From Nanobdellota archaeon (GTDB lineage: Archaea > Nanobdellota > Nanobdellia > Pacearchaeales > GW2011-AR1): a stretch of DNA of 35,265 nt. Below, piece by piece: positions 4,224-35,007 of this stretch. The notes beneath the pieces are model-generated. The model worked only from the letters and a program-made list of their open reading frames with translations. It did no database searches and was not told where the DNA came from. Every line of letters starts with the position of its first letter. Position 1 is the stretch's first letter. Where the stretch lies: positions 1 to 35,265 of the forward strand of contig JAUYDD010000011.1 in the NCBI GenBank assembly GCA_030704765.1, in the 5' to 3' direction. Made by a program: the position numbers and the translations under genes.

Positions 4224-4305
4224 GCCGCTGTGTGGGACAATGGTACTCCAACCGCTTTGAGAGCGGTGCCTTAACGGCCTCCCGGTTCGATTCCGGGCAG
4301 CGGCG
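4224..4305 (+). tRNA. tRNA-Ser: tRNA-Ser (anticodon UGA), class II with a long variable arm, no encoded CCA
   Basis: Acceptor stem GCCGCTG / CAGCGGC with discriminator G. Anticodon stem ACCGC/GCGGT with loop TTTGAGA (anticodon TGA). Variable arm GCC-TTAAC-GGC. T arm CCCGG-TTCGATT-CCGGG. Total length 82 nt. Confidence 0.9.
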
Positions 4306-4306
4306 T
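4294..4306 (+). repeat. attL core (overlaps the tRNA-Ser 3' end)
   Basis: CGGGCAGCGGCGT is identical to 34995-35007. Confidence 0.8.
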
Positions 4307-4369
4307 CCTAATAAAGTTCTATGCCGTTTTCGAGGGCGGTTTTAATAGCAGAAAAAAACGCTATTAAAC

Positions 4370-5566
4370 ATGGAACAGAAAATAGACATACATAATTATA
4401 AGGGTAGATTTGATAGTACAGTTAAAAGAATAAATGGATCTTTAGATATTTCTGATCAGGATAAACTAGCTATTAATAGGCTTAAGGATTATTGTATTTG
4501 CCAAGGTATCACCTATGGAAAGATTGATGCTTATCTTTTCTATGCTTCAAGGCTTGCTAGAATGCTCCATAAACCAATCGAACAAGCCACAAAAGAAGAT
4601 CTTATGAAAGTTGTAGCAGAACTTAATCAATCACATTATAGTGAGGAAACAAAAGTTTGTTTTAAAATTATGATCAGAAAGTTTTACAAAATGCTTAAGG
4701 GCATTGAAGAAAAAGGAAAATACCCTCCTGAGGTTGATTGGATAAATACTACAATTTCTAAAAATCATGAAAAACTGCCTGAAGAACTTTTAACAGAGGA
4801 AGAGGTTGAAAAAATAATTAGGTCTGCTCGAACTGTAAGAGATAAAGCGCTTCTTGCAGTTATTGCAGAATCTGGTTGTAGGGTTTCTGAAATAGGAACA
4901 ATGAAAATCAGACAAATCACATTTGAACAACACGGAGCTAGATTAACTGTTTCAGGAAAAACTGGAACTAGAAAAATTCTTGTTATTAGCACTACTCCTT
5001 ATTTAAGAGAGTGGCTAAACCAACATCCTTTAAATGACAATTCTGATGCTTATTTATGGTATAATTCTGGGAAAAATTCTTTTTTATCCTATGCAAGAAT
5101 AGCCCATATATTAAAAGCTGCAGCTAGTAAGGCTGGAATAAAAAAAAGAGTCTATCTTCATTTACTAAGACATACAAGAGCAACAAGAATGGCTAATATG
5201 ATGAGCGAAGCAGCAATGAAACAATATTTTGGATGGACTCAGAGTTCAAAGATGGCAAGTATTTATGTTCATATGTCTGGAAAAGATACTGATGATGCAA
5301 TATTAAAAGCAAATGGAATTGAAATTAAAAAAGAAGAATTCAAACAATGTTTAAAACCTCTTAATTGTGAAGGTTGCAAAACAATAAATGAGGCTACAAA
5401 CAGATTCTGCAAAGTATGTGGACTTCCATTAGTAAAAGAGGAAGCTCAAGAGATAATAAAAACAGATACAGAAAGAAAACAATATGATGAAATGATGATG
5501 AAAGCCTTAGCTGATCCAAGAATATTGGAGATTATTAAAGAGAAAATGAAAGGGATACAAAATTAA
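4370..5566 (+). CDS. Tyrosine recombinase / integrase with a C-terminal zinc ribbon
   Basis: 398 aa. Box I Arg in AESGCRVSEI, the HLLRHTRAT (HxxR) motif, and the catalytic Tyr in ASIYVHM. The C-terminus has CEGC...CKVC. The gene lies directly next to the tRNA/attL. Confidence 0.85.
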   Translation: MEQKIDIHNYKGRFDSTVKRINGSLDISDQDKLAINRLKDYCICQGITYGKIDAYLFYASRLARMLHKPIEQATKEDLMKVVAELNQSHYSEETKVCFKIMIRKFYKMLKGIEEKGKYPPEVDWINTTISKNHEKLPEELLTEEEVEKIIRSARTVRDKALLAVIAESGCRVSEIGTMKIRQITFEQHGARLTVSGKTGTRKILVISTTPYLREWLNQHPLNDNSDAYLWYNSGKNSFLSYARIAHILKAAASKAGIKKRVYLHLLRHTRATRMANMMSEAAMKQYFGWTQSSKMASIYVHMSGKDTDDAILKANGIEIKKEEFKQCLKPLNCEGCKTINEATNRFCKVCGLPLVKEEAQEIIKTDTERKQYDEMMMKALADPRILEIIKEKMKGIQN

Positions 5567-5573: not shown

Positions 5574-5897
5574 TTAATCTTTTGTTTTATTTTCAACTAA
5601 CAATGAGATATAAGCAATTAAGCCACTTAGTCCAATTAAAGCCCAACCTAAAAAAATGTAAGGTTTATTTTGAAGTATCATTTCTTGAGTTAGTTGATCT
5701 GTCCAAGTAAAATATAATAATTTTGACATTGTTCCAATCATTATTGCTGTTGTAAAAGAAAATATGCAGTAACCTAAAAAGGTTACAAGATGTGACCTAT
5801 CAAAAAATTTACTTTTAAGTTTTATTACTCTAATAATTAAAGTTATAATCAGAAAAATAATACCAAGTACTATTGATAAATTATCAAATCTTATCAT
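5574..5897 (-). CDS. Small integral membrane protein (3-4 predicted TM segments), unknown function
   Basis: 107-aa ORF made of hydrophobic helices. It is tightly packed with the next small ORF upstream. Confidence 0.5.
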   Translation of the reverse strand: MIRFDNLSIVLGIIFLIITLIIRVIKLKSKFFDRSHLVTFLGYCIFSFTTAIMIGTMSKLLYFTWTDQLTQEMILQNKPYIFLGWALIGLSGLIAYISLLVENKTKD

Positions 5898-6111: not shown

Positions 6112-6381
6112 CTAATTCTCTTTATCTTCATATAAAAACATGAGTATAGGCAATACTTCTTTATTCATCTTCATCCTCTTTAATGTCTTTTCAAGTTCTT
6201 CGGATGACCGATGATAAATCATCTGATATGAAAAAGATGAGCGTTTTTCTTTTAATTTTGTAAATTCATTAAGAATTTCATTTTTCAATCTTATTGTATT
6301 CCAAGCCCTATTATTTTCATTATAACAGATTTTTCCATCTATATTAATTATTGTCTTAGGGATTAGAGGTTTTCTTTCCAT
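6112..6381 (-). CDS. Hypothetical protein (89 aa)
   Basis: ORF only, with no recognisable motif. It is divergent from the TrmB-led operon. Confidence 0.4.
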   Translation of the reverse strand: MERKPLIPKTIINIDGKICYNENNRAWNTIRLKNEILNEFTKLKEKRSSFSYQMIYHRSSEELEKTLKRMKMNKEVLPILMFLYEDKEN

Positions 6382-6540: not shown

Positions 6541-7251
6541 ATGGAAAACGAAGCAAAATTACTAGGGCTAAATAGCTATGAATTCAGGGCATATCAAGCC
6601 TTGATTAGGTTAGGGAAAGCCACAGCACAAAAGATAAGCAAACTAAGTAGTGTTCCATCCAGTAGAATATATGATATATTATCTTCTCTTGAATCAAAGG
6701 GATATATTAAAACAATAAATGATAGGGTAAAGTATTTTATTGCCTCTGATCCTAAAGAAGTCATAAAATTTATTCAAAACAAAAAGAAAGAACTAGATAA
6801 TCTTGAGGTTGAATTTGGAAGGCTTGAACAGATTTATGATATTCAGGAAGAAGAACCTATACTCATTGTAAAAGGAAACAGAAATTTTCATAGACTTCTA
6901 AAGGAAAAACCAGAAGCTAAAAAATATAGATATACAATAAAATATAATTCTGTTGTAAATCCTGAATGGGTAAAAGGATATAAAAATAAATTAAAGAAAA
7001 AAGTTGATATTAAAAATCTAGTAAGATTTGATGAAAAAACCAGGAAAAATGTATTAAAATGGAAAGATGTTCTTCCTGAAATAAAGGCAATTGAAAATGA
7101 AGGAGTTTTGATGTCTTTAATTGATGATCATTATGTTATGATTGGATTAATTACTTCTAATTGTACCGTGGTAATAAAAAATGAAGCTTTTTGTAAGATC
7201 CTAAAAAAAATGTATCTTGCAACATATGAGAAAGCTGAGGTAATAAAATAA
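6541..7251 (+). CDS. TrmB-family transcriptional regulator
   Basis: N-terminus LGLNSYEFRAYQALIRLGKATAQKISKLSSVPSSRIYDILSSLESKGYI is a typical TrmB wHTH. It is the first gene of a 5-gene coupled operon. Confidence 0.75.
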   Translation: MENEAKLLGLNSYEFRAYQALIRLGKATAQKISKLSSVPSSRIYDILSSLESKGYIKTINDRVKYFIASDPKEVIKFIQNKKKELDNLEVEFGRLEQIYDIQEEEPILIVKGNRNFHRLLKEKPEAKKYRYTIKYNSVVNPEWVKGYKNKLKKKVDIKNLVRFDEKTRKNVLKWKDVLPEIKAIENEGVLMSLIDDHYVMIGLITSNCTVVIKNEAFCKILKKMYLATYEKAEVIK

Positions 7252-7252
7252 A

Positions 7253-8428
7253 ATGCAAACACAAAAATTTAAACTAAAACAACTGAATCAAAATATTTCT
7301 TGGAGTAAATTAAATGCAGTTTCAAAGGTTTATTTATTAGGAATTTATAGAGATATTTTAGCAAATGAGCAAATAAAAAAATGTCAGCTATTAAATGATA
7401 GAGATGTTTATTTTAAAGATTCAAATATGACTCTCCAAGGAACTTCTATCTCAGGGCTAAGTTCCCCATCTATTTTAGATAAACCTATTATTTTTGATAA
7501 AAATAATTCAGTTGAACAAAATTTAGATGATTTTACTACAATTTTAGCAGAGTGTTATTTAAAAAATATGAAAGAAGATCTAAAAGTTTTCAAAAAAGCT
7601 TTTCCAGATGATCTCGAGCAGTTTAGAAAAATAGGCACTTACTGGGTCGGTCATATAAGTGCTAAAATGTTAGGCTTAATTTTTAAACTTGATATTGATA
7701 TGGATAAAATAGACCCAAAAATATATGGAATTAATGTTCCATTTTATCAATTAATGAATAACTCTAAATATAATAAATTGAAAAAACAATATTTAGAAAA
7801 AACTGATAATCATTCAATTAAATTAATAACCAAAAAAAGTTTTATTTTATCAGATTCAACCGGAGCAAGAGGAATTGTAAATGATGTTAATTCAAAAGAA
7901 ATGAATAGAATAAGAATCCTGGTTCCTTCAAATATCAATAACATACTTTTGTTTATTTCTAAATTAACTGTTAAGAAAATTAATCTTTTAAAGAGTAAAT
8001 ATAAAGAAACTGAAAAATTAAATCTGAGATCATTGGCTTTAATCTGTAGTGATACAGATTCTCCTGATGGAATTTATAGAGAACTTGGATGGCACCCAAT
8101 TGAAGGTTATCCTTTAACTCCTGGTTGCTTTATTCTAGGGTCAACTGGTTCACTAGATTTATATTGTTTGCAAGCAAAATATATCTATAGATTATCTCTA
8201 GCTGCACAAGAAGAAATGAAAAATAGTATAACAAGCAACATAAAAGGAAAATATACTCCGGTAGTCTGGTTTGGAGCATTAAGCCTTCATGCCTTAACAG
8301 AACATAAAATAGTTGATACTAAAAAATTATCTGAATTAAGATATGATGGAGACTTTGATCCTAAAAAAGAATTCTTACACTGGTTAAATAAAGAAGGAAA
8401 AGAATATCTTAGAGGAGGATTAAAATGA
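7253..8428 (+). CDS. Hypothetical protein (391 aa), no recognisable motif
   Basis: Starts 1 nt after the TrmB stop. Its TGA overlaps the ATG of the next gene (ATGA). I could not find a KxDG ligase motif or a nucleotidyltransferase motif. Confidence 0.6.
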   Translation: MQTQKFKLKQLNQNISWSKLNAVSKVYLLGIYRDILANEQIKKCQLLNDRDVYFKDSNMTLQGTSISGLSSPSILDKPIIFDKNNSVEQNLDDFTTILAECYLKNMKEDLKVFKKAFPDDLEQFRKIGTYWVGHISAKMLGLIFKLDIDMDKIDPKIYGINVPFYQLMNNSKYNKLKKQYLEKTDNHSIKLITKKSFILSDSTGARGIVNDVNSKEMNRIRILVPSNINNILLFISKLTVKKINLLKSKYKETEKLNLRSLALICSDTDSPDGIYRELGWHPIEGYPLTPGCFILGSTGSLDLYCLQAKYIYRLSLAAQEEMKNSITSNIKGKYTPVVWFGALSLHALTEHKIVDTKKLSELRYDGDFDPKKEFLHWLNKEGKEYLRGGLK

Positions 8429-9009
8429 GTAGACAGGAATATTGGAATTGTAACACTGCATGCACTAAACGATTTTCAGAAACCTTTCCAAGAAGTATAT
8501 TACCAAGAATATCTTTAGGTATGATTTTAGATTTAGGATGTTCATCAGGACAAACTACCCAACATATCGCAGATATTTATCCAGATTCAGCTGTAATTGG
8601 AATTGATATTAATTATAAAAAAATAAAAGAAGCAAGAGAAATAAATACAAATCCAAACATAGAATTTTTATTAGCTGATGGATACCAAATGCCTTTCTCA
8701 AATTTAACATTTGATGCGGCTTTTTGCATGAATAATTTAAATCAAGCTATAGGGTGTGAAATGATTTCAAAAGAAAGAATCGTTGAAATAGCTAATGAAA
8801 TTGCAAGAGTAATAAAACCAAGAGGCTACCTAATGTTCTCAGGACAAGATAAATCAATTATGCAAAAGATGCATTCTGGTTTTGAAATGAGATATTATTA
8901 CTTTGATAGTAGTCCTCAACCTTCTCAAACTTTATTTGAGGCATTAAATAATAAAACAAGAAGAAGATTAAGAAAGAAATCTTTTAAAGCCGAGGTGGTT
9001 TTAAAATGA
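8425..9009 (+). CDS. Class I SAM-dependent methyltransferase
   Basis: Motif I ILDLGCSSGQ, the acidic loop VIGIDIN, the ADGYQMPF motif, and IKPRGYLMFSG. Confidence 0.8.
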   Translation: MSRQEYWNCNTACTKRFSETFPRSILPRISLGMILDLGCSSGQTTQHIADIYPDSAVIGIDINYKKIKEAREINTNPNIEFLLADGYQMPFSNLTFDAAFCMNNLNQAIGCEMISKERIVEIANEIARVIKPRGYLMFSGQDKSIMQKMHSGFEMRYYYFDSSPQPSQTLFEALNNKTRRRLRKKSFKAEVVLK

Positions 9010-9839
9010 AAATTTTAGTAATAGGCGATTTACATGGAGAATTTCCTGAAAATGTTAAAGAGGTAATAAACAAAGAAAAAATAGATTTAATTCTATCTAC
9101 AGGAGATTTTGCTAATTTCGATAATTATAGAAAAATAAAGTTTGAAAAAATGGATAAGACAAAATTCTCCAATAAAGTAAAAGATAGTGTAAATAATGAA
9201 GATTACAATAAGATGATTAATGAAATTATTAAATCAATGGAAAAACCTCTAGATGCTTTGGATTCTTTTAATATTCCAGTTTATACAATCTATGGAAATC
9301 TCGACTATACAAATTATGAAGTAAACAAACATAAAATAAGGACAAACAGCTTAAACAGAATTGTTAAGAAATCTAAGAATATTAAATTATTTCGGGAGGG
9401 GTATGTTGACCTAGGTAGTCTTCAGATTTTATTATTTTCTGGGTATAGAAAGAATGCTCTAAAGTATGCTCCTAAGAAAACTAAAAAAGTTGATAGATTA
9501 AATAAAGGGTGGAGAGACAGGCTGAATAAAATATTTTCACAAATAAAACCAGATAAACCTGTTTTATTCTTATTCCACGATCCTCCAAAAGATACTAAAT
9601 TAGATTTAATCAATAATCCAACCAGTCCAATGAATGGTAAGCATGTTGGAGATGAGATCAATAGAGAATTTATAGAAAAATATCAGCCTCAAATTGCTGT
9701 TTGTGGACACATGCATGAAACACAAGGAACTGACAAAATCGGAAAATCTCTAATAATCAATGCAGGTTATGGCAGAGCAGGTCAATTCTTAATTTTAGAT
9801 ATAAATGGAAATGATGTTAAATATGATTTGAGGAAATAA
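9006..9839 (+). CDS. Calcineurin-like metallophosphoesterase
   Basis: Motifs in order: VIGDLHGE (DxH), TGDF (GD), YGNLD (GNxD), FHDPP (H), CGHMHE (GHxH). Confidence 0.85.
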   Translation: MKILVIGDLHGEFPENVKEVINKEKIDLILSTGDFANFDNYRKIKFEKMDKTKFSNKVKDSVNNEDYNKMINEIIKSMEKPLDALDSFNIPVYTIYGNLDYTNYEVNKHKIRTNSLNRIVKKSKNIKLFREGYVDLGSLQILLFSGYRKNALKYAPKKTKKVDRLNKGWRDRLNKIFSQIKPDKPVLFLFHDPPKDTKLDLINNPTSPMNGKHVGDEINREFIEKYQPQIAVCGHMHETQGTDKIGKSLIINAGYGRAGQFLILDINGNDVKYDLRK

Positions 9840-9840
9840 A

Positions 9841-10374
9841 ATGGTAAAAACAAATTTAGTTTTATTAACAGGACTTCCAGCAGGAGGAAAAAGCACAGTT
9901 GCACAAAGATTAGTTAGTGAATATGGTTTTGCAGTTTTATCTACAGATGATTTAAGACAATCGTTATTTCAACAAACTTATGAGGAACTAGCAAAAGATG
10001 GAAAAAGAAAAGATGAAGTGATAAGAAAAATTATTGATTATTCAAAATTTCAAATTTTAAGTGCAGGTTGCGATCTAGTTATTGACTCCACTGCACCAAC
10101 TGAAAAATTTAGAAGAAGAATGCTAGAATTACCTGAATATCTTGAACAGGCAGTTAAAAAATCCGTTTTATATCTAAGGAGTGAAGAACAAACAAGACAT
10201 TCAAGACACATGGCTCGTGGTGGTTCAGAGGTTTCTTTAAAGACTATTCAAGGGTTTTGGAAGGAGCCACAAGATGGATTTTGCGGGGCAAGTTTGTATT
10301 CAATTGAGAATAATGGAAATCAAGATCAATTGTTTAAAGAAGTTGCTAAGTTTTATGAGTGGTTGAAAAGATAG
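9841..10374 (+). CDS. P-loop kinase resembling the polynucleotide 5'-kinase domain (T4 Pnk / Pnkp type)
   Basis: Walker A GLPAGGKST. LSTDDLRQS resembles T4 Pnk INRDDYRQS, which carries the general-base Asp and an Arg. VIDSTAPT resembles ISDTNL, and there is an Arg-rich lid, RHSRHMARGG. The comparison is with the T4 and Clostridium Pnkp sequences as I remember them. Confidence 0.65.
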   Translation: MVKTNLVLLTGLPAGGKSTVAQRLVSEYGFAVLSTDDLRQSLFQQTYEELAKDGKRKDEVIRKIIDYSKFQILSAGCDLVIDSTAPTEKFRRRMLELPEYLEQAVKKSVLYLRSEEQTRHSRHMARGGSEVSLKTIQGFWKEPQDGFCGASLYSIENNGNQDQLFKEVAKFYEWLKR

Positions 10375-10928: not shown

Positions 10929-10944
10929 TTTATTAGTGAAGAAT

Positions 10945-11682: not shown

Positions 11683-11683
11683 T

Positions 11684-11851
11684 TTATTTAAAATACTCCC
11701 TATCTTTTAAGTTCTTTGGTTTAATTTCAGCTTCAAAATATTTTACCATTTTCTTAATTGCATCTTGTTTTGTTTTTAATCGATTTGTAAGTTTATATAT
11801 CTCTACAATTCTGTCTTCTTCCTCGTCTAAGTCTATTTGTATTTTTGTCAT
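11684..11851 (-). CDS. Small (55 aa) RHH/antitoxin-like protein, not in the ORF track
   Basis: My own translation: MTKIQIDLDEEEDRIVEIYKLTNRLKTKQDAIKKMVKYFEAEIKPKNLKDREYFK. The beta-strand then helix-helix pattern is typical of CopG/RHH or DUF2683-like proteins. It is coupled to the downstream coiled-coil gene. Confidence 0.4.
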   Translation of the reverse strand: MTKIQIDLDEEEDRIVEIYKLTNRLKTKQDAIKKMVKYFEAEIKPKNLKDREYFK

Positions 11852-13282: not shown

Positions 13283-13283
13283 A

Positions 13284-28173: not shown

Positions 28174-28174
28174 G

Positions 28175-28925: not shown

Positions 28926-29963
28926 ATGATGCAAGTAAATAAAGTGCATCAAATAGAGGTTTTAGAAGGCTTGAAAGAACTACCTGATAATTCTATTGAT
29001 TGCATTGTTACAAGTCCGCCTTATTGGAATTTAAGAGATTATAATGTCAAAGACCAGATAGGCTTGGAAAAAGATCCAGAAGATTTTGTTAATAAAATAG
29101 TTGAAATAATGAAGGAATGTAAAAGGGTTATAAAACCTACTGGAACAATCTGGTTAAACTTAGGAGACTCTTATTTTAAAAGTAATAGTAATAATTGCAA
29201 ATCTAACTGGTTACAACAAAAACAAAGATTGCTAATTCCATTTAGAATAGCAATAAAATGCCAAAATGAATTGGGACTAATATTAAGAAATGATATTACT
29301 TGGGTTAAGCAGTTATGGAATTGTAAAACTAAAGAATCTTTTGGATCTTCAATGCCGACAGGGGTTAAAGACAGATTAAATACAACGTCTGAATCACTTT
29401 TCTTTTTTGTTAAGTCTAATAAATATTATTTTAATTTAGATAATATAAGGATACCTTATCGAGATAAAAAAATAACAAATTCTCAAGGCAAAAATCCAGG
29501 TGATTGCATAATGTTTCCATTAGAACCTAGCAGAGAAAAGCATATTGCAATGTTTCCTAAAACTCTCCCAGAATTTTGTATTAAAGCGGGCTGTCCTAAA
29601 CAAATATGCAAAAAATGCAGTACTCCTAAATTAATAATAAAAAAGTCAGATAGCCCATATTCTTTTAATATTAGAGTAAGAGATGTTAAAAATGGAAGAA
29701 TTAAAAGTTTAGATAGAAAAGCTTCACTAAAAGAAACTAAAGATTATAATGAAAAAAACTATGTCTCTAAAAAAGAAGATCAAATTATTTTAAGCTGCAA
29801 TTGCAAAGCAGGATTTAATTCAGGTATTGTTTTAGACCCTTTCATGGGTTCTGGAACTACTGCTATTGTAGCCAAAAAACTCGGTATGAATTTTATTGGT
29901 TTTGATTTGAATAAAAATTATATCAAAATAGCTAATAGGAGGATTTCTCAAATTGGCAATTGA
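28926..29963 (+). CDS. Beta-class N4-cytosine/N6-adenine DNA methyltransferase, with no adjacent endonuclease
   Basis: Motif IV IVTSPPYW lies near the N-terminus, HIAMFPKTLPEF is present, and motif I VLDPFMGSGTT lies near the C-terminus (the IV-before-I order is the beta class). A ~75-aa Cys-containing insertion precedes motif I. Confidence 0.85.
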   Translation: MMQVNKVHQIEVLEGLKELPDNSIDCIVTSPPYWNLRDYNVKDQIGLEKDPEDFVNKIVEIMKECKRVIKPTGTIWLNLGDSYFKSNSNNCKSNWLQQKQRLLIPFRIAIKCQNELGLILRNDITWVKQLWNCKTKESFGSSMPTGVKDRLNTTSESLFFFVKSNKYYFNLDNIRIPYRDKKITNSQGKNPGDCIMFPLEPSREKHIAMFPKTLPEFCIKAGCPKQICKKCSTPKLIIKKSDSPYSFNIRVRDVKNGRIKSLDRKASLKETKDYNEKNYVSKKEDQIILSCNCKAGFNSGIVLDPFMGSGTTAIVAKKLGMNFIGFDLNKNYIKIANRRISQIGN

Positions 29964-30204
29964 AACTGAAACAAAATCTAGAGGATTATATTCTTTATTA
30001 TTAAGAAGATTGGAAGAAGCAAGAAGAAAATGCAATAAAGAAACAATTCCGTTTCCAAATGTTTTTTCTAAAATTTGCAGTAATTTTTCTATAACTAAAA
30101 AAGAGTGCTGGGAGCTGTTATATTTTGTAAGAGAAATGGGCTTGATTGAGATTGTTCCTTATCATGGGGTGAGAATAGTTGATTTAAAGGAGGTTAAAAA
30201 ATGA
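29953..30204 (+). CDS. Small wHTH-like protein (83 aa)
   Basis: Overlaps the methyltransferase stop by 11 nt. The helix-rich segment ITKKECWELLYFVREMGLIEIV suggests a winged helix. Assignment is weak. Confidence 0.4.
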   Translation: MAIETETKSRGLYSLLLRRLEEARRKCNKETIPFPNVFSKICSNFSITKKECWELLYFVREMGLIEIVPYHGVRIVDLKEVKK

Positions 30205-30285: not shown

Positions 30286-30576
30286 ATGAAGAAATATCTT
30301 TCATTTGGGATTGTAGGATTTATTTTAAGTTTAATTTTAGCCTATTTTGGTTATTCATTAGGCAATAAACCAAATGACATTCTATTCCCATTTTACCAAG
30401 TTTTACTATTTGCAATGTTATTATATTTCATTCCATTGCTATTAGTAGGATTGTTTTTAGATATGTCAAAAAAGAGAAAAATTTTCAAGATATTAGCTAT
30501 AATAATCTTAATTCTTGTGGCATTAATAACAGCTTTTTTAGTTCTTTTGAGTTTTTCTTTTAAATTTATTTCCTGA
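30286..30576 (+). CDS. Small membrane protein (96 aa, three TM segments)
   Basis: Hydrophobic ORF with a promoter motif at -23. Confidence 0.5.
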   Translation: MKKYLSFGIVGFILSLILAYFGYSLGNKPNDILFPFYQVLLFAMLLYFIPLLLVGLFLDMSKKRKIFKILAIIILILVALITAFLVLLSFSFKFIS

Positions 30577-30615
30577 TTATTTTATTTACTACTGATTCTT
30601 AATAAATTTTTTTGC

Positions 30616-30628
30616 AATAGATTTATAT
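30616..30628 (+). promoter_or_regulatory. Second copy of the AATAGATTTATAT promoter motif, ending 23 nt before ATG 30651
   Basis: Exact 13-nt identity and identical spacing to the copy at 30251-30263. Confidence 0.5.
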
Positions 30629-30650
30629 CTAACTACTATGTCTAAATATT

Positions 30651-33600
30651 ATGAAAAGATATGGTGTTATCAGTCTAGGTATTGTAGTAATACTACTCTG
30701 TGTCGGATTTATTTTTGCAGAAAATATTGAAGAATATAATTTAGACAACACACAAAAACTGACTATTCCTGAATTTTTTTCTAATGTAACAAGTTTTTTT
30801 AATAAAGAATATTCAAATAATAATTCAATTGTTCATTTTATTCAATTAGATTTTCAAGATACTTCTGTTTTAGCAGATAATATTAATCGTACATTAGATA
30901 ATGTAGATTTAGAACATGTCCAGGAGATTGGGGGGAAAATTTATGTTATTTACCCCAATTATATTGAATGGACAAGCCAGAGTAAAATAATTCATATAGA
31001 AATTTATTCTGGAAATGCTGAATTATTAAATAATTCTATTTTTAATTATTATAGTAGTTTATATCCTAGTGATTTAGATAACTATGCGAGTCCTCCAGTC
31101 CAATCAAAATCGATGAATATGTTAATATTAGCTTTACAATCTAGTAGTCAGTGTGATAGATGTGGTGAAGGTTTATTTAATAATTGTGATAAAGATGAAT
31201 GTTATGGTTTAGGGTCTTCTTGTTATCTAGGTTGGGCTTCATGTACTGGATGGGGAGATTGTTGGTGTTATGATGGTTCAAATATCTTTAATGGAAATGA
31301 CGATTACTGCAAATATAAGGGACAGAGAAAAAATGGATGTTCAAGAAATGAATATGATTGTGATTGGGACTCTGAATGTGCTTATGGACTTTCCTGTAAA
31401 GGTCCTATAGGCGGAGCTGCAGATGGATGTTGTTATTCTTATGAGGCATGGGATACTAATTCTATGTCTTGTTATGACCCAAGATTAAGTCATGGTCAAT
31501 ATGACTGTGATTGGGACTCTGAATGTAAACCTGGATTAGTCTGTGATGGTAAAACTGCAACAACTGACTTTAATGATGAAGGTTGTTGTTATAATTATGA
31601 AAATTGGAATAACAATGCTAAAGTTTGTAATTATGCGATTTATGGAACTGTTTATAATTCTGTATTAAATTCCAATGGAGCTTTTACTCAAACACCTTAT
31701 TCTAACTTGAAATTAGTTATTAAGATAAGTAATCATGAGGCTTCATGGTTAACAACTAATTATGTTGAGACATCGACAGATTCAAGCGGAAATTTCTATT
31801 TTAATCCTGAAAGATATATTTCTAGTTGGAATTCATTAGCATTTGGAGTTAACCTATTTAATTGGAAAGTTGATAATATCTATGCAGTTCAAGGAAATGA
31901 AGTTATTGGTGAATGGACCAATGATTTTAATAATGGTTTTTGGGGAGGAGAAGATTCTGGTTATCAATCAGGTTTAAGGTCAAGACATCAGATAGTTATG
32001 ATACATACAAATATGCCTTATTGGAGGATAAGTGAATTTTCAAGTAATACTGCGATGGTTAAATCTATGGCGATTCAAACAAATGAGCAACAGCAGAATA
32101 TAATAAATCCTCCAACAAATATGCTCTCAAATGAAAAAATGACTTCAAATAAAATTGTAGGAACTCTTATAATAAAAGATGAGGGAGATTATAACTTTAA
32201 AGTTTCTTCTAGTGGAGGAGTTAAATTATTAATAGATGGCAAGGAAATTATTAATGACTGGAATGACCCTATAAATAATACTTATGAAAGATATGGTAAA
32301 GTTTATCTTTATAATGGAAATCACACCTTATCTCTTGATTATTATGAATATGAAAATAATCAAAGATTGAATATTGATTGGGAAACACCTAAACCAATTA
32401 AAGTAAATCAGCTATATGAAGTTTTTATTCCAAGTGATATTAATCAAAAAGACTATCCAAATCCTTCGGAAGGACAAAAACTAATGGCTACAGCTCAAGT
32501 CCTTTCAGCATCTTCTTCGTATACTGATAATCAAGATAATTATCAAGTATCTTTTATTGAAGACCCAAAAGTATACGAGACATCAAAATCTTATACTCCT
32601 TCCAGAAGACCTCTCTTGTTAGTTCATGGAATGGGTGGAACTGATGGATATTGGGATAATTTGTATCCCTATTTTTCAAATGATTTTGATGTATGGCAAT
32701 TTTATTATCCAAATGACCAAGAGATAAAATATTCATCTGCATTACTAAGAGAAGGAACTGATTTTATTTTAAAAAATTATAATTCTAATTCTGTGGATAT
32801 TGTTTCTCATAGTATGGGTGGATTAGTCTCACATGGATATAGTTCAAATTTAGGACAAAGTCCAAGTGGAATTAGAGTTAGTTATGGAAATAATGTAAAT
32901 AAAATTATAACCTTAGCATCTCCTCTTTATGGTTCTCATCTTGCAAATGTTATTTCTGAAACAACAGACTTTGGATTTGGTTGTAAAGCTACAGAATTTG
33001 TTAATAATATAAGAGAAGGTATATTTGGTGGAGTTCGAAGTGATGCTCCTGCATATAGGGATATAGCTGTAGGAAGTAATTTTACTTTCCAATTAGGAAA
33101 TAAAAATTTGAATGCAAATATTAAATATTATACTATAGCCGGTACAGATGCTTATACTCTTGTAAAAGTCTGTAGAGAGGCTGATGATAATACCATGGAT
33201 GGTTTAGTATCAACATCAAGTGCTAGTTTATTAAATAAAAACATAGATTTATACACGATCTATACAACACATTCAGGATTTACATATACTTGTTCTGATA
33301 CTTTAGCTTATTTGTTTGCCTGTATTCCATTAGTATCAACACCTTCTCCATTACAACAGATTTCAAACATGGTCTATTCATTTACAAAAGGAACAAACCT
33401 TAGTTCTAGTAATTATCAATATAAATTGACAAATCTTAACTATAATCCTTATACTGAAGGCGCAGTTCTAATAAAGACCAAAGAAAATGTATCTGGTGTA
33501 AAATTAAAATTTATATCTACAAACAAAACATATTATCTTTATAGAAATCAATTTAACCCTATCTGGTACTTCTGGGGAAATTCCGGTCAAGATGGATTAA

Positions 33601-34865
33601 ATATTCCTCAAGGAAAATATGAGGTTTTGGTTGGTAATGCAACAAAAGGAAAGGAAATATCGATATACCCTGCTCAAACATCTATATACGATTTATCAAT
33701 CTGTACACCTAATTGGACTTTAATGAATAATTGGAGCTCATGCCAGAAAAACAATCAAACAAACAAAGATTGGATAGATACCAATTATTGCGGTGATAAT
33801 TCAACAAAACCTTCTAAAGTTATCCAAACTTGTGATTATTGCCAACCCAATATATCAAACCCTCTTTATACAGAATGGTCTATTTGTTCAAATCATTTAA
33901 GGACTAAAATAAAATATTATAAAGATTTGAATTATAATTCTTGTTGCATCATAACTAACCTAAGCTCCGATTGTATAATAAATAATAAATCTTATCAGAA
34001 TATTACTGAAACCGAAGATTGTGATATTCCCTCCCTTAGTTTAAGTATACTTGAGCCACAAGACAAGATTTACGATTCTGGGAAGTTAAATTTGAAAACA
34101 AATTCAGATAGTAACATAATCAAATTAGAAACTATAGATTATTATAGTGGAAATAAAAATCCAAGATGGACTACATTATGTTCTAAGAACTGCAAGACTT
34201 ATGAGAAGAAAATTAACTTTAATGATGGAAATCATAGTCTAATTGTAAGGGGAACTTCAGATAAAGGACTGATTTATACTAGTAATGTTTCTTTCATAAT
34301 TGATACAAAAGATCCACAAATATCAACTACAAAACCTTCAAGCAATAAATATACAAATGGCTCGAATTTCTATATTAAATATACTGAAGCTAATTGCCAA
34401 ACATTAAAGATATTAATAAATGGGCAAGAAGTTCTATCACAGGGCTGCACATCAGGAAAGAATATTGAAAAAGTTATTCCCTTAGATATAAGTTCATTTA
34501 ATGGGCAATTGGTTAGATATCAATTTATTATTTCAGATATTGCTAGTAACACATATCAATCAAACCCTACAAAAATAAAAGTCGATACAACTGCTCCTGA
34601 AATAAAGAATCTAAATGTTTCAGTTTCTGGAAGATATGCTTATTTTAAGATGACTGTTTTAAATGAAAATAAAGACAGTTTTAATAAGGTTGAATACAAA
34701 GACAACTCTGATTCAAGACCTTCCTGGAAATCTTTATGTACAAATTTAAAGAATGAAATTTGTGAGAAAAAAATATCATTCAGAACTGGAAATCATGATA
34801 TGATTATAAGAGCATTGGATGATGCTGGAAACAGCGATACTAAAAATATTAGTTTTATGATTTAA
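30651..34865 (+). CDS. Giant secreted multidomain protein: signal peptide, Cys-rich repeats, PA14-like domain, alpha/beta-hydrolase (lipase-like) domain, Cys-rich region, C-terminal Ig-like repeats
   Basis: Signal ISLGIVVILLCVGFIFA. A 50-aa repeat YDCDWDSEC..GL.C.G...GCCY.YE.W occurs twice (DNA near 31352 and 31500). PA14-like EGDYNFKVSSSGGVKLLIDGKEIINDWN...LDYYEYENNQRLNIDW. Lipase motifs LLVHGMGG and the nucleophile elbow SHSMGG. Repeated IDTKDPQIS and VDTTAPEIK modules are present. Confidence 0.8.
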   Translation: MKRYGVISLGIVVILLCVGFIFAENIEEYNLDNTQKLTIPEFFSNVTSFFNKEYSNNNSIVHFIQLDFQDTSVLADNINRTLDNVDLEHVQEIGGKIYVIYPNYIEWTSQSKIIHIEIYSGNAELLNNSIFNYYSSLYPSDLDNYASPPVQSKSMNMLILALQSSSQCDRCGEGLFNNCDKDECYGLGSSCYLGWASCTGWGDCWCYDGSNIFNGNDDYCKYKGQRKNGCSRNEYDCDWDSECAYGLSCKGPIGGAADGCCYSYEAWDTNSMSCYDPRLSHGQYDCDWDSECKPGLVCDGKTATTDFNDEGCCYNYENWNNNAKVCNYAIYGTVYNSVLNSNGAFTQTPYSNLKLVIKISNHEASWLTTNYVETSTDSSGNFYFNPERYISSWNSLAFGVNLFNWKVDNIYAVQGNEVIGEWTNDFNNGFWGGEDSGYQSGLRSRHQIVMIHTNMPYWRISEFSSNTAMVKSMAIQTNEQQQNIINPPTNMLSNEKMTSNKIVGTLIIKDEGDYNFKVSSSGGVKLLIDGKEIINDWNDPINNTYERYGKVYLYNGNHTLSLDYYEYENNQRLNIDWETPKPIKVNQLYEVFIPSDINQKDYPNPSEGQKLMATAQVLSASSSYTDNQDNYQVSFIEDPKVYETSKSYTPSRRPLLLVHGMGGTDGYWDNLYPYFSNDFDVWQFYYPNDQEIKYSSALLREGTDFILKNYNSNSVDIVSHSMGGLVSHGYSSNLGQSPSGIRVSYGNNVNKIITLASPLYGSHLANVISETTDFGFGCKATEFVNNIREGIFGGVRSDAPAYRDIAVGSNFTFQLGNKNLNANIKYYTIAGTDAYTLVKVCREADDNTMDGLVSTSSASLLNKNIDLYTIYTTHSGFTYTCSDTLAYLFACIPLVSTPSPLQQISNMVYSFTKGTNLSSSNYQYKLTNLNYNPYTEGAVLIKTKENVSGVKLKFISTNKTYYLYRNQFNPIWYFWGNSGQDGLNIPQGKYEVLVGNATKGKEISIYPAQTSIYDLSICTPNWTLMNNWSSCQKNNQTNKDWIDTNYCGDNSTKPSKVIQTCDYCQPNISNPLYTEWSICSNHLRTKIKYYKDLNYNSCCIITNLSSDCIINNKSYQNITETEDCDIPSLSLSILEPQDKIYDSGKLNLKTNSDSNIIKLETIDYYSGNKNPRWTTLCSKNCKTYEKKINFNDGNHSLIVRGTSDKGLIYTSNVSFIIDTKDPQISTTKPSSNKYTNGSNFYIKYTEANCQTLKILINGQEVLSQGCTSGKNIEKVIPLDISSFNGQLVRYQFIISDIASNTYQSNPTKIKVDTTAPEIKNLNVSVSGRYAYFKMTVLNENKDSFNKVEYKDNSDSRPSWKSLCTNLKNEICEKKISFRTGNHDMIIRALDDAGNSDTKNISFMI

Positions 34866-34994
34866 TCTCGCTTTATTAATTTCCATATTCATTTATAGAG
34901 CTCTTTAAATACTAATTTCTCCTCGGTAAATTAGCTAAAAATAATTTGCTATTAAATACCGCACACAAAAAGGAATAGAACTTTTCCATTGAAT

Positions 34995-35007
34995 CGGGCA
35001 GCGGCGT
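34995..35007 (+). repeat. attR core (displaced partial tRNA-Ser 3' end)
   Basis: CGGGCAGCGGCGT is identical to 4294-4306. The upstream GAAT resembles the tRNA GATTC with an indel. Confidence 0.8.

What the first reader, a model, noticed from the sequence alone, without database searches (positions are those of the whole stretch)
4224..35007. A ~30.7-kb integrated element in tRNA-Ser(UGA) with no recognisable replication, relaxase or capsid genes
An intact tRNA is followed by an integrase and then 30 kb of accessory genes. A 13-bp exact repeat of the tRNA 3' end (CGGGCAGCGGCGT) lies at 34995-35007.

The cargo combines defence (type I R-M, orphan methyltransferase), recombination (Cas4-like and RusA-like), a minimal T4SS-like operon, an RNA-end-processing-like operon and a giant adhesin/lipase.

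I see no Rep, MCM or primase, no relaxase, no VirD4/TraG, and no virion genes. If the host is a small-genome archaeon, this would be an unusual integrative, possibly conjugative, element.
Basis: partly seen in the sequence, partly recalled or inferred. Interest (0 to 1): 0.6.

Follow-up and report, generated by a model that had tools for sequence, protein, structure and literature searches.

The report
Integrated DNA-transfer element in tiny archaeon
A 30.7-kb mobile element sits next to a serine tRNA gene of an ultra-small (DPANN) archaeon; it belongs to a widespread family, undescribed in the papers I could search, that carries a stripped-down conjugation-type machine whose motor is fused to a nuclease-like domain and has none of the usual DNA-nicking or coupling proteins.

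Summary
A tRNA-Ser(UGA) gene is followed 63 bp later by an intact tyrosine integrase. The last 13 bases of the tRNA region (CGGGCAGCGGCGT) recur exactly once, at 34995-35007 (0 of 100 shuffles).

The host is a Pacearchaeota-type DPANN archaeon, and the window is one whole contig of its MAG.

Related elements exist in about 10% of genomes of the order and in 188 loci of GTDB species genomes. They share a fixed core: VirB2-like pilin, a secreted ~460-aa protein, a VirB6-like membrane protein and a VirB3-VirB4 ATPase, often with an 89-aa protein and a DNA methylase. Their cargo varies. They use different integrases and different tRNA targets. In four relatives they are bounded by 12-14-bp direct repeats.

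No Rep, relaxase, VirD4 or virion gene was found here or beside the relatives examined. The VirB4 ends in a domain modelled with a PD-(D/E)XK nuclease fold.

Limits:
- The adjoining tRNA is an aberrant second copy.

Verdict: a real integrated element and a new variant of archaeal ICE-like or Ced-like systems. Conjugative transfer is inferred, not shown.

The parts
4224..4305 (+). tRNA-Ser(UGA), an aberrant second copy with a 2-nt insertion after the acceptor stem and C32T. Its 3' end carries attL.
   Evidence: ARAGORN. Alignment with 10 other tRNA-Ser(UGA) genes of the genus. A canonical copy lies on C126 behind L10/L12.
4294..4306 (+). attL core, CGGGCAGCGGCGT
   Evidence: One of two exact copies; 0 of 100 shuffles. 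It lies 63 bp before the integrase start, the same spacing as in G278 and close to that in G022.
4370..5566 (+). Tyrosine integrase of the classical type (the gene stays whole after integration), with a C-terminal zinc ribbon
   Evidence: Pfam Phage_integrase E 5.6e-24. NCBIfam XerA_Arch 119.9 bits, below its cut-off. R171, K197, H264-x-x-R267 and Y299 seen by eye in the translation. Homologues: 63% beside tRNA-Ser(UGA) in G022, 62.5% in G278, 51% in G058.
5574..5897 (-). 107-aa membrane protein, unknown
   Evidence: Three hydrophobic segments; no family.
6112..6381 (-). p89, a small conserved backbone protein of the family; function unknown
   Evidence: Homologues lie within 10 kb of VirB4 in 20 of 48 long loci and in 7 of 10 relatives examined. 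No Pfam or PDB match.
6541..10374 (+). Cargo operon: TrmB regulator, p391 (unknown), SAM methyltransferase, metallophosphoesterase, P-loop kinase
   Evidence: Pfam. The same operon without the methyltransferase lies in G278 at 78-89% identity. The p391 family has only 11 members, and its AF2 model is poor (pLDDT 53.6).
10404..13508 (.). Mixed cargo: metallophosphoesterase, LemA-like coiled coil, macro domain, two small membrane proteins
   Evidence: Pfam; TM scan.
13488..15225 (+). Cas4-like PD-(D/E)XK exonuclease (441 aa) with a 142-aa partner that is only weakly RusA-like
   Evidence: PDDEXK_1 E 6.6e-25. PHROG exonuclease families. PADLOC Cas4 E 1.7e-6. RusA E 0.033 only. L078 has the same arrangement, a 142-aa gene beside a PDDEXK_1 gene.
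15260..22751 (.). Type I restriction-modification system: HsdR (+); HsdM, PDC-S19/DUF3644, HsdS and two unknown genes (-)
   Evidence: Pfam. PADLOC REase_I 1105 bits, MTase_I, Specificity_I, PDC-S19.
22890..25925 (-). VirB3-like anchor, VirB4 ATPase and a C-terminal PD-(D/E)XK-fold domain (about aa 842-1011)
   Evidence: NCBIfam CD1110-family VirB4 340.6 bits against a cut-off of 325. PDB 4AG5 E 7.5e-34. PrgI 24.3 bits, below cut-off. C-terminal domain: AF2 pLDDT 86.9; the top Foldseek matches are PD-(D/E)XK-type nucleases; E898, D929, E942, E944 and K959 invariant in 19 homologues.
25922..26824 (-). VirB6-like polytopic membrane protein (300 aa)
   Evidence: At least 5 hydrophobic helices. 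Present next to VirB4 in 47 of 48 long loci. No HMM match, so the name rests on topology and position.
26803..28185 (-). Secreted 460-aa Asn/Tyr-rich protein of the T4SS operon
   Evidence: N-terminal signal-like segment. Homologues detectable in 23 of 48 loci. No family.
28175..28513 (-). VirB2/TrbC-type pilin (112 aa)
   Evidence: Pfam T4SS_pilin E 4.7e-15 and TrbC at its cut-off. Signal segment plus two hydrophobic helices. Present in 45 of 48 loci.
28510..28764 (-). 84-aa zinc-ribbon protein, first gene of the T4SS operon
   Evidence: ORF; weak DZR_2 hit; homologue in G278.
28926..30204 (+). N6/N4 DNA methyltransferase and the 83-aa protein p83
   Evidence: Pfam N6_N4_Mtase E 2.6e-47. The two travel with the T4SS block in L078, G278, G125, G222 and G058.
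30286..34865 (+). 96-aa membrane protein and a 1404-aa surface protein (PA14, PGAP1-like alpha/beta hydrolase, Big_13): cargo particular to this copy
   Evidence: Pfam. Absent from all 80 related loci. Paralogous segments lie on at least 8 other contigs of the genome.
34903..34933 (+). Conserved non-coding block CTTTAAATACTAATTTCTCCTCGGTAAATTA near the right end; a candidate integrase arm site or promoter
   Evidence: 30 of 31 bases identical in G278 at the equivalent place before its right repeat, although the upstream genes differ.
34995..35007 (+). attR core, CGGGCAGCGGCGT
   Evidence: Second exact copy. Four relatives have the same 13-mer at the end of their tRNA-Ser(UGA).

Best explanation
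Window 4294-35007 is an integrated mobile element of a Pacearchaeota-type DPANN archaeon.

A classical, lambda/pNOB8-style tyrosine integrase recombined a 13-bp core shared by the element and the 3' end of a tRNA-Ser(UGA) gene. That left the core as a direct repeat at both ends.

The element belongs to a large family with a fixed backbone: a minimal conjugation-type (MPF-FATA-like) apparatus, often with an 89-aa protein and a DNA methylase. The apparatus consists of a VirB2-like pilin, a secreted ~460-aa protein, a VirB6-like channel protein, and one polypeptide joining a VirB3-like anchor, the VirB4 motor and a PD-(D/E)XK-fold domain.

The space between these genes is filled with exchangeable cargo. 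Here the cargo is a type I R-M system with a PDC-S19 gene, a Cas4-like nuclease, a methyltransferase/phosphoesterase/kinase operon, a macro-domain protein and a giant surface protein.

Proposed life cycle (inferred): the integrase excises the element as a circle, and the pilus/VirB4 apparatus moves DNA to another cell without a relaxase or coupling protein. The nuclease-like domain on VirB4 would do the DNA cutting. The new host's tRNA end serves as attB.

- **Shown:** anatomy, repeats, family distribution, modularity, fold prediction.
- **Inferred:** excision, DNA transfer, and the role of the nuclease-like domain.
For: **Ends**
- Exact 13-bp repeat, 0 of 100 shuffles, unique in the assembly.
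- Core-to-integrase spacing is 63 bp, as in G278.
- A 31-nt block before attR is 30/31 identical in the G278 element, whose own ends are a 14-bp direct repeat 23.5 kb apart.
- Relatives are bounded in the same way by tRNA-end repeats. G092 has 12 bp, 18.4 kb apart, at tRNA-Asp. G222 has 12 bp, 22.5 kb apart, at tRNA-Asp. G058 has 13 bp, 26.2 kb apart, next to a 51%-identical integrase.
- A 13-bp att is within the known archaeal range of 8-60 bp (PMC8371274).

**Mobility of the family**
- VirB4 matches occur in 52 of 301 genomes of the order, about 30 of them full-length. Some genomes have two copies.
- There are 188 loci in GTDB species genomes.
- 14 loci show a tRNA followed by an integrase within 10 kb of VirB4, at five different tRNAs.
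- In the same genus, G004 has an 80%-identical VirB4 behind tRNA-Cys with a different integrase (28% identity over the matched 174 residues).
- The T4SS block (22769-30236) is 87-94% identical in DNA on other contigs whose flanks are unrelated.
- In genus g32 the SerRS/tRNA-Asp site holds such an element in G092 and G099 and an integrase in G202. It holds no homologue of the G092 integrase in G333.

**Apparatus**
- VirB4 passes the CD1110-family cut-off and matches PDB 4AG5.
- The pilin matches PF18895.
- Across 48 long loci the core is present in 45-48.

**Nuclease-like domain**
- AF2 pLDDT 86.9.
- The top Foldseek matches are PD-(D/E)XK-type nucleases, with probability up to 1.0.
- The acidic residues and a lysine are invariant.
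- The same domain ends ~360-aa proteins (some with N-terminal membrane-like matches); in six of eight loci fetched these lie beside an integrase or integrase-sized ORF, four of them confirmed by Pfam.

**Integrase**
- The gene looks intact, with catalytic R, K, HxxR and Y present.
Against: - No excised circle, empty site or attP was found for this copy. Junction patterns are absent from metagenome and viral contigs, and reads could not be examined.
- Only about 55 unique bases follow attR, so the right flank cannot be compared with relatives.
- The tRNA at attL is an aberrant second copy in a non-conserved neighbourhood. The insertion history is therefore more complex than one integration into the housekeeping gene.
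- None of 27 fully held related contigs is circular.
- There is no coupling ATPase, and no transfer has ever been shown for this kind of apparatus.
- The nuclease-like domain has E-x-E where the canonical motif has E-x-K. Foldseek E-values are modest (3e-3 and weaker), so catalysis is unproven.
- Composition does not differ from the host. That fits a long-resident element, but it gives no independent sign of foreign origin.
- In relatives the flanks beyond the repeats are themselves poorly conserved, so precise empty sites could not be aligned.
Confidence: 0.6

Rival explanations
1. The element is integrative, but the T4SS-like module is not for its own transfer. Instead it would serve one of two purposes. 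It could be a Ced/Ted-like DNA-import device, or a cell-contact/secretion device that the episymbiotic archaeon uses on its host cell, as proposed for Patescibacteria T4SS and for the nanohaloarchaeal VirB4-containing giant proteins. In either case the module is carried as beneficial cargo.
For: - Like Ced/Ted, the module has only a pilin, a VirB6-like protein and a VirB4-like protein, with no VirD4 or relaxase (PMC9905601 as summarised in PMC12102498).
- Relaxase-less MPF-FATA-derived T4SSs in Patescibacteria are thought to have non-conjugative roles (PMC12102498).
- VirB4-type ATPases are linked to host interaction in nanohaloarchaea (PMC10266531).
- This copy also carries a giant PA14/lipase-like surface protein.
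Against: - The distribution is patchy: about 10% of genomes have a full-length copy.
- Some genomes hold two copies.
- The module is constantly linked with integrases, tRNA ends and defence cargo.
- These three features are those of a selfish element, not of a host-interaction organelle. The Patescibacteria system, by contrast, is near-universal and chromosomal.
- A nuclease-fold domain on the motor points to DNA, not protein, as the substrate.
Confidence: 0.27
2. The region is a fossil or composite genomic island rather than one active element. On this view accessory and defence genes accumulated next to a degenerate tRNA copy. The 13-bp repeat would be a remnant of an older event, or the boundary with a neighbouring element. 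The 7-kb T4SS block would be a separately exchanged cassette.
For: - The tRNA is aberrant and is not in the conserved tRNA-Ser locus.
- A third, 66-nt tRNA-Ser fragment lies on C192.
- Only the block 22769-30236 is shared with near-identical contigs.
- The left flank (Fic, AAA_14/DUF4143, PD40) also looks accessory.
- Composition equals that of the host.
- No junction evidence was found.
Against: - All backbone ORFs, including the integrase and the 1011-aa VirB4, are intact.
- The repeat sits exactly where relatives have theirs: 63 bp before the integrase, and just after a conserved 31-nt end block.
- Four relatives show the same end-to-end architecture.
Confidence: 0.1
3. The region is a provirus whose structural genes are too divergent to recognise.
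For: - An integrase lies next to a tRNA.
- Several ORFs are unassigned (p391, p460, p267, p189).
- A Cas4-like exonuclease of a kind also found in PHROGs is present.
Against: - No capsid, portal, terminase or packaging ATPase was hit in Pfam, or in PHROGs for the unassigned ORFs.
- The VirB4 scan of viral contigs found no relative.
- The conserved core is a pilin/VirB6/VirB4 set.
Confidence: 0.03

Closest known systems
Integrative-conjugative elements of Thaumarchaeota and conjugative plasmids of Sulfolobus (pNOB8 type)
   Same: - Archaeal elements with a tyrosine integrase, short att repeats at tRNA or other sites, a VirB4/TrbE-type ATPase, VirB6- and VirB3-like membrane proteins, R-M cargo and no relaxase (PMC6563490).
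- The integrase gene stays whole after integration, as in the pNOB8 class (PMC8371274).
   Different: - Those elements carry a VirD4/TraG partner ATPase, usually a replication module, and TFIIB/ParB genes. None of these was found here or beside the relatives examined.
- Here VirB4 is of the bacterial monoderm CD1110 type. It is fused to a VirB3-like anchor and to a nuclease-fold domain, and a VirB2-type pilin is present.
Ced (Sulfolobales) and Ted (Thermoproteales) DNA-import systems
   Same: A minimal set of VirB2-like pilin, VirB6-like membrane protein and VirB4-like ATPase, with no relaxase and no coupling protein (PMC9905601; PMC12102498).
   Different: - Ced and Ted are described as cellular DNA-import systems used for genome repair. 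This module lies inside integrase-bounded, patchily distributed, sometimes multi-copy elements.
- No direct sequence comparison with CedB or TedB was made here. The best named matches are bacterial MPF-FATA VirB4s.
T4SS of Patescibacteria (CPR)
   Same: An MPF-FATA-derived VirB4 with VirB2-like pilins in ultra-small episymbionts, mostly without a relaxase (PMC12102498).
   Different: The CPR system is chromosomal and present in about 80% of genomes (2,417 of 3,035). Here it is on integrative elements in about 10% of genomes of the order, and VirB4 carries the extra nuclease-fold domain.
MPF-FATA conjugation systems of monoderm bacteria (C. difficile CD1110-type ICEs, Mycoplasma ICE)
   Same: VirB4 scores above the NCBIfam CD1110-family cut-off and matches the Mycoplasma ICE model. 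It also matches the Thermoanaerobacter VirB4 structure 4AG5. It has a PrgI/VirB3-like N-terminus.
   Different: The bacterial systems have a relaxase, a T4CP, a VirB8-like protein and a cell-wall hydrolase. None of these was found here.
PYG1 genomic island of Pyrococcus, and the SNJ2 provirus att site
   Same: PYG1 has an integrase but no identified replication module, yet it is found as a circle. The SNJ2 att site is 13 bp (PMC8371274). Both lack of a Rep and a 13-bp att therefore have precedents.
   Different: Neither carries a T4SS-like module.

Membership tests
Archaeal integrative-conjugative element (as defined for Thaumarchaeota ICEs and Sulfolobus conjugative plasmids) | Integrase with flanking att direct repeats | tested here: met
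   Integrase E 5.6e-24. The 13-bp repeat appeared in 0 of 100 shuffles.
Archaeal integrative-conjugative element (as defined for Thaumarchaeota ICEs and Sulfolobus conjugative plasmids) | VirB4/TrbE-type ATPase | tested here: met
   NCBIfam CD1110 VirB4 340.6 bits against a cut-off of 325. PDB 4AG5 E 7.5e-34.
Archaeal integrative-conjugative element (as defined for Thaumarchaeota ICEs and Sulfolobus conjugative plasmids) | VirD4/TraG coupling ATPase paired with VirB4 | tested here: not met
   No second FtsK/HerA-type ATPase in the window. None appears in the Pfam lists of neighbours of six related VirB4 genes.
Archaeal integrative-conjugative element (as defined for Thaumarchaeota ICEs and Sulfolobus conjugative plasmids) | Excision to a circle and cell-to-cell transfer | not testable with these tools
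Junction patterns are absent from public contigs.
Ced/Ted-type DNA import system | VirB2-like pilin, VirB6-like membrane protein and VirB4-like ATPase, with no relaxase or T4CP | tested here: met
   Pilin matches PF18895 at E 4.7e-15. A polytopic 300-aa protein is present. VirB4 is confirmed. No relaxase or T4CP was found.
Ced/Ted-type DNA import system | Chromosomal host system, not part of a mobile element | tested here: not met
   The module is bounded by an integrase and att repeats, is patchy in distribution, and is multi-copy in some genomes.
Ced/Ted-type DNA import system | Sequence kinship of the ATPase with CedB/TedB | not tested
   No CedB or TedB sequence was compared. The best named matches are bacterial MPF-FATA VirB4s.
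MPF-FATA class conjugative T4SS | VirB4 of the FATA clade | tested here: met
   Above the curated cut-off of NF045971. No phylogeny was made.
MPF-FATA class conjugative T4SS | Relaxase, T4CP, VirB8-like protein and cell-wall hydrolase | tested here: not met
   No Pfam, NCBIfam or PHROG match in any ORF.
Classical (class II, lambda/pNOB8-like) archaeal tyrosine integrase | The integrase gene is intact after integration, and att lies outside the gene at a tRNA 3' end | tested here: met
   A full 398-aa ORF begins 63 bp after the core.
Classical (class II, lambda/pNOB8-like) archaeal tyrosine integrase | Catalytic R, K, HxxR and Y residues | tested here: met
   R171, K197, H264/R267 and Y299 read from the translation. 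The Pfam match covers profile positions 3-168 of 172.
PD-(D/E)XK nuclease superfamily (VirB4 C-terminal domain) | Restriction-endonuclease-like alpha/beta fold | tested here: met
   AF2 pLDDT 86.9, pTM 0.83. The top Foldseek matches are Cdn1, YaeQ, NucS, PspGI, Hjc and the splicing endonuclease, with probability 0.84-1.0.
PD-(D/E)XK nuclease superfamily (VirB4 C-terminal domain) | Canonical D...(D/E)-x-K catalytic motif | tested here: inconclusive
   P-D and E-x-E are invariant, and a lysine 15 residues later is also invariant. The motif lysine is replaced, so activity is unknown.
Type I restriction-modification system | HsdR, HsdM and HsdS all present | tested here: met
   PADLOC REase_I 1105 bits, MTase_I 691.6 bits, Specificity_I 266.6 bits.
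Provirus | Capsid, portal or terminase genes | tested here: not met
   None in Pfam for all ORFs, or in PHROGs for ten ORFs (nine unassigned plus the Cas4-like exonuclease).

The most novel reading that the evidence does not exclude
These DPANN elements conjugate with a one-polypeptide engine: a VirB3 anchor, the VirB4 motor and a PD-(D/E)XK nuclease. This engine would replace both the relaxase and the coupling protein. The nuclease would cut the excised element, or chromosomal DNA, at the channel. The same nuclease module working beside integrases elsewhere in these genomes would be part of one DNA-mobilisation toolkit. If the recipient can be the host cell of the episymbiont, this would be a route of gene flow between DPANN archaea and their hosts.
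Probability: 0.3. Interest if true: 0.85.

Novelty: new variant of a known kind. Interest (0 to 1): 0.62.

Why it matters
How archaea conjugate without relaxases is an open question, and almost nothing is known about the mobile elements of DPANN archaea. The review of archaeal tyrosine recombinases that I searched does not mention them, and six literature searches found no description of this family.

This family offers three things:
- a compact, repeatedly sampled model of 18-31 kb with defined ends and a five-gene apparatus;
- a concrete candidate for the missing DNA-processing activity, the nuclease-fold domain on VirB4;
- a vehicle that visibly shuffles defence systems (type I and II R-M, PDC-S19, diversity-generating retroelements) and surface proteins among ultra-small archaea.

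It also gives testable integrase/att pairs with 12-14-bp cores. These could become genetic tools for organisms that have none.

Tried and rejected

**Junction scans.**
- The reconstructed attB pattern and the attR pattern gave 0 hits in metagenome contigs.
- The attP junction gave 0 hits in viral contigs.

**Exact-protein look-up of the left-flank 99-aa protein.** Not on record.

**Empty site through the same-genus element of G278.** Its right-flank gene has no homologue in 49 genomes of the genus, and its left flank is not syntenic in G000. No aligned empty site was obtained.

**Empty site through G092.**
- Orthologous SerRS/tRNA-Asp sites are occupied in G099 and G202.
- In G333 the site holds no homologue of the G092 integrase, but the right flanks do not align.

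**G024 tRNA-Ser.** The downstream sequence matches the window's attR flank for only 2 extra bases, so it is not an empty site.

**rRNA for host identity.** None is in the MAG. Identity rests instead on the archaeal L12/P1 operon and on record names of homologues.

**Rfam.** The tRNA-Ser genes, canonical ones included, do not reach any gathering score. Rfam therefore could not judge the aberrant copy.

**Cryptic Rep or relaxase.**
- Lenient Pfam, NCBIfam, PHROGs and PDB sequence searches of unassigned ORFs gave nothing.
- The AF2 model of p391 was too poor (pLDDT 53.6) to search by fold.

**Other checks.**
- VirB4 single-sequence scan of viral contigs: no relatives.
- Circularity of 27 fully held related contigs: none.
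- Compositional contrast: none.

**Rejected readings.** A provirus, because there are no structural genes. A chance repeat, because of the shuffle result and the matching architecture in relatives.

Full report
**1. What is in the window**

The window is the whole 35,265-base contig C113, the longest of a 244-contig, 1.71-Mb MAG that is 87.6% complete. ARAGORN finds one tRNA, tRNA-Ser(UGA), at 4223-4308.

A 398-aa tyrosine recombinase gene starts 63 bases after the tRNA (Pfam Phage_integrase E 5.6e-24; nearest NCBIfam model archaeal XerA). R171, K197, H264-x-x-R267 and Y299 are all present in its translation.

The 13-mer CGGGCAGCGGCGT covers the 3' side of the T stem, the acceptor strand, the discriminator and one more base.
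- It occurs at 4294-4306 and again at 34995-35007.
- It occurs nowhere else in the window, even with one mismatch, and in none of 100 shuffles.
- It occurs nowhere else in the assembly.

**2. The host**

No rRNA is in the bin. Contig C126 carries an L1-L10-L12 operon with an archaeal-type L12/P1. Homologues of the element's VirB4 are named Candidatus Pacearchaeota, Woesearchaeota or Nanoarchaeota in their records.

Earlier notes of this scan also call the genome Pacearchaeota; I treat that as a lead that agrees.

G+C is 28.6% in the island and 30.2% in the rest of the genome. The island's tetranucleotide profile lies inside the spread of other 10-kb pieces. The contig therefore fits its bin, and the element is compositionally at home.

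**3. Gene content**

After the integrase, in order:
- a small membrane protein;
- an 89-aa protein (p89);
- an operon of TrmB regulator, unknown 391-aa protein, SAM methyltransferase, metallophosphoesterase and P-loop kinase;
- a second phosphoesterase, a LemA-like protein and a macro-domain protein;
- a Cas4-like PD-(D/E)XK exonuclease with a 142-aa partner whose RusA match is weak (E 0.033);
- a complete type I R-M system, with HsdR on one strand and hsdM, a PDC-S19/DUF3644 gene, hsdS and two unknown genes on the other;
- a five-gene operon: zinc-ribbon protein, VirB2/TrbC-type pilin (PF18895, E 4.7e-15), a secreted 460-aa protein, a polytopic 300-aa VirB6-like protein and a 1011-aa VirB4;
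- an N6/N4 DNA methyltransferase, an 83-aa protein and a 96-aa membrane protein;
- a 1404-aa surface protein with PA14, PGAP1-like hydrolase and Ig-like parts.

No ORF matches a replication initiator, MCM, primase, relaxase, VirD4/T4CP or virion protein in Pfam (all ORFs). The unassigned ORFs also gave nothing in NCBIfam or PHROGs.

The 'P-loop_TraG' hit on VirB4 refers to the VirB4-like TraG of Bacteroides conjugative transposons, not to a coupling protein.

**4. The VirB4**
- It passes the curated cut-off of the NCBIfam CD1110-family model (340.6 against 325 bits) and matches the Mycoplasma ICE VirB4 model.
- Its ATPase core (aa 464-819) matches the Thermoanaerobacter VirB4 structure 4AG5 at E 7.5e-34.
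- Its N-terminus has a PrgI/VirB3-like membrane segment (24.3 bits, below cut-off).
- Its last ~170 residues match no Pfam or PDB sequence.

That last domain was modelled with seven homologues and folds confidently (pLDDT 86.9, pTM 0.83). The top Foldseek matches in the PDB are PD-(D/E)XK-type nucleases: Cdn1/Can2, YaeQ, NucS/EndoMS, PspGI, Ecl18kI, Hjc, RecU, splicing endonuclease and the R2 endonuclease. Probabilities reach 1.0 but E-values are modest, 3e-3 and weaker.

E898, H902, P928-D929, E942, E944 and K959 are invariant in 19 homologues of 58-82% identity. The motif reads D...E-x-E rather than D...E-x-K, so activity is open.

A profile of the domain finds 645 cluster representatives among 1.84 billion proteins. 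In the order it also forms the C-terminus of ~360-aa proteins, some with weak N-terminal membrane-domain matches. In six of eight loci fetched these lie directly beside an integrase or integrase-sized ORF. Four of these were confirmed by Pfam, and one (L089) has the zinc-ribbon architecture of the window's integrase.

**5. It is one of a family**

A six-frame search of 301 genomes of the order finds VirB4 matches in 52. About 30 of these are full-length close homologues, some genomes have two copies, and only 2 of 16 other sampled genomes of the genus have one.

The large protein collection holds 779 homologues at E below 1e-20. A scan of GTDB species genomes gives 188 loci.

In the 48 loci with at least 15 kb held, the following are present beside VirB4:

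| Gene | Loci of 48 |
|---|---|
| VirB6-like protein | 47 |
| pilin | 45 |
| 460-aa protein (detectable) | 23 |
| p89 | 20 |
| HsdM-like methylase | 15 |
| N6/N4 methylase | 10 |

Most other genes of the window have no counterpart in these loci, and the rest only a few. They are cargo.

Pfam lists for the neighbours of six related VirB4 genes show integrases, R-M systems of several types, a diversity-generating retroelement (RT plus bAvd) and toxin-antitoxin genes. They show no VirD4, relaxase or Rep.

**6. Ends in relatives**
- **G092:** the element starts at tRNA-Asp, followed by an integrase. The last 12 bases of the tRNA recur 18.4 kb away, just after p89.
- **G222:** a 12-bp repeat of the tRNA-Asp end brackets 22.5 kb, in the same gene order as the window.
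- **G058:** a 13-bp repeat brackets 26.2 kb. One copy lies in a tRNA-Asp-like 3' fragment next to an integrase 51% identical to the window's.
- **G278 (same genus):** the order is integrase (62.5% identical), p89, TrmB, p391, phosphoesterase, kinase ... VirB4 ... methylase, p83, as in the window. A 14-bp repeat (TCGTGGGGGCGTTT) lies 63 bp before the integrase and again 23.5 kb away. The left neighbour is the exosome/proteasome operon, and there is no tRNA.

A 31-nt non-coding block at window 34903-34933, 61 bp before attR, is 30/31 identical in G278 at the same relative place, although the preceding genes differ. This shared end sequence, together with the equal core-to-integrase spacing, is the strongest internal support that 34995-35007 is the true right end. 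It also places the PA14 gene inside the element.

Att cores of 8-13 bp are documented for other archaeal elements (PMC8371274).

**7. Modularity and recent exchange**

The block 22769-30236, which runs from VirB4 to p83, is 87-94% identical in DNA to contigs from other samples. Their sequence on both sides is unrelated.

In the same genus, G004 has an 80%-identical VirB4 in an element behind tRNA-Cys, with a different integrase (28% identity over the matched 174 residues) placed at the pilin end.

Fourteen GTDB loci show a tRNA followed by an integrase upstream of the pilin operon. Ten are at tRNA-Asp, and the others are at Cys, Glu, Ser(GGA) and Gly. Integration modules and cargo are therefore swapped around a constant transfer core.

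**8. Presence or absence at orthologous sites**

In the genus of G092, the SerRS ... tRNA-Asp locus carries the T4SS element in G092 and G099 and an integrase in G202. In G333 it carries no homologue of the G092 integrase or the other G092 element ORFs in the 2.8 kb downstream. The sequences beyond do not align, so this is polymorphism of occupancy, not a base-exact empty site.

For the window's own site:
- Nine relatives have tRNA-Ser(UGA) behind the L10/L12 operon, without an integrase.
- Four relatives have the identical 13-mer at the tRNA end, three of them with no integrase within 1.5 kb.
- G022 has a 63%-identical integrase behind its tRNA-Ser(UGA).

**9. An unresolved complication**

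The genome has two tRNA-Ser(UGA) genes and a fragment.
- The copy on C126 is canonical and sits in the conserved place.
- The copy at attL has GCCGCTG-TGTG-GGA where all ten others have GCCGCTG-TG-GGA, plus a unique C-to-T change 5' of the anticodon.
- A 66-nt 3' fragment lies on C192. It shares that T and the bases that follow the discriminator in the attL copy.

The left flank (Fic, AAA_14/DUF4143, PD40 proteins) is not syntenic with relatives. The element therefore did not simply enter the housekeeping gene. Repeated or tandem integrations, a duplicated target, or strain mixture in the bin are all possible, and I could not decide among them.

Both contig ends are copies of a dispersed ~75-200-nt repeat present on most contigs. 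This is why the assembly stops about 55 bases beyond attR.

**10. What could not be shown**
- Exact scans for the reconstructed attB, the attR flank and the attP junction found nothing in public metagenome or viral contigs.
- None of 27 fully held related contigs is circular.
- The largest unassigned cytoplasmic protein, p391, belongs to a family of only 11 sequences. Its model was too poor to search by fold.

**11. Interpretation**

Best reading: an integrated, ICE-like element whose backbone is a minimal MPF-FATA-type apparatus. I put the integrated element with these ends at about 0.8, and self-transfer of DNA by the apparatus at about 0.4.

The family behaves as a selfish element. It is patchy, sometimes duplicated, tied to integrases and tRNA ends, and loaded with defence genes. 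That argues against a purely host-serving organelle such as the near-universal chromosomal T4SS of Patescibacteria (PMC12102498).

The nuclease fold on the motor argues for DNA as the substrate. The absence of a relaxase is normal for archaeal conjugative elements (PMC6563490). The absence of VirD4 and of any replication module, together with the VirB3-VirB4-nuclease fusion, is what sets this family apart.

Main rival (about 0.27): the module imports DNA like Ced/Ted, or mediates contact with the symbiont's host, as proposed for VirB4-containing giant proteins of nanohaloarchaea (PMC10266531), and merely rides on an integrative element.

**12. Novelty**

Six full-text searches found no paper describing these elements. 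The review of archaeal tyrosine recombinases does not mention DPANN.

Other agents of this scan have noted the same family in other genomes. I re-derived their main points here: the nuclease fold, the integrase neighbourhood and the tRNA-end repeats. Their notes are not independent evidence.

I class it as a new variant of a known kind (archaeal ICE-like / Ced-like systems), with interest 0.62.

Noticed in passing
window 65-139 and 35060-35265: Both contig ends are copies of a dispersed ~75-200-nt repeat found on most contigs of the assembly, often at contig ends. It evidently breaks the assembly. Earlier notes call it a palindromic MITE-like repeat.
   Followed up: partly
window 4224-4305; G000 C126:9355-9436; G000 C192:2951-3015: The genome holds two tRNA-Ser(UGA) genes and a 66-nt 3' fragment. 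The window's copy has a unique 2-nt insertion between the acceptor and D stems and a unique C-to-T change next to the anticodon. The C192 fragment shares that T and the downstream TCCTA.
   Followed up: partly
window 34903-34933: A 31-nt block with a TATA-like TTTAAATA is 30/31 identical at the same place in the G278 element. Weaker copies lie near tRNA-Glu in G125 and on G000 contig C23. It may be an arm site, or a promoter reading across the att site.
   Followed up: partly
window 17612-22751: The hsdM-hsdS operon has three extra genes inserted in it: a PDC-S19 candidate defence gene (DUF3644 + EC042_2821 nuclease-like domain) and two unknown proteins of 189 and 267 aa.
   Followed up: no
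window 7253-8428: p391 is 89% identical in G278 but has only 11 homologues in 5.8 billion proteins. It always sits between a TrmB regulator and a phosphoesterase/kinase pair. No family, and the AF2 model is poor.
   Followed up: partly
L074 10499-19962 (JGI 3300029286, Ga0247841_10003632): A T4SS block 88% identical in DNA to the window's is followed there by two reverse-transcriptase genes and a bAvd gene (a diversity-generating retroelement) instead of the type I R-M system.
   Followed up: no
window 30651-34865; G000 contigs C150, C74, C100, C137, C186, C203, C73, C140: The 1404-aa PA14/lipase-like surface protein has 27-39% identical segments on at least eight other contigs. It belongs to a multigene family of the host.
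   Followed up: no
L085 3221-4351, L086 5033-7370, L087 149-2504, L089 2631-4885, L091 2811-5293: The VirB4 C-terminal nuclease-fold domain also ends ~360-aa proteins, some with N-terminal membrane-like matches. These mostly lie directly beside integrases, or integrase-sized ORFs, of about 390-424 aa.
   Followed up: partly
L110, L120, L148, L153, L157, L161, L162, L179: Some GTDB records holding close VirB4 homologues are labelled Methanosarcinales, Bdellovibrionales, Bacteroides or 'bacterium'. These are probably mislabelled or mis-binned DPANN contigs, but cross-domain presence was not excluded.
   Followed up: no
window 266-1162; G000 C192:530-1462; L024 (G006): Fic/DOC genes recur near tRNA-Ser(UGA) copies or fragments, and in 5 of 80 VirB4 loci. 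This hints that the window's left flank is itself accessory or part of another element.
   Followed up: no
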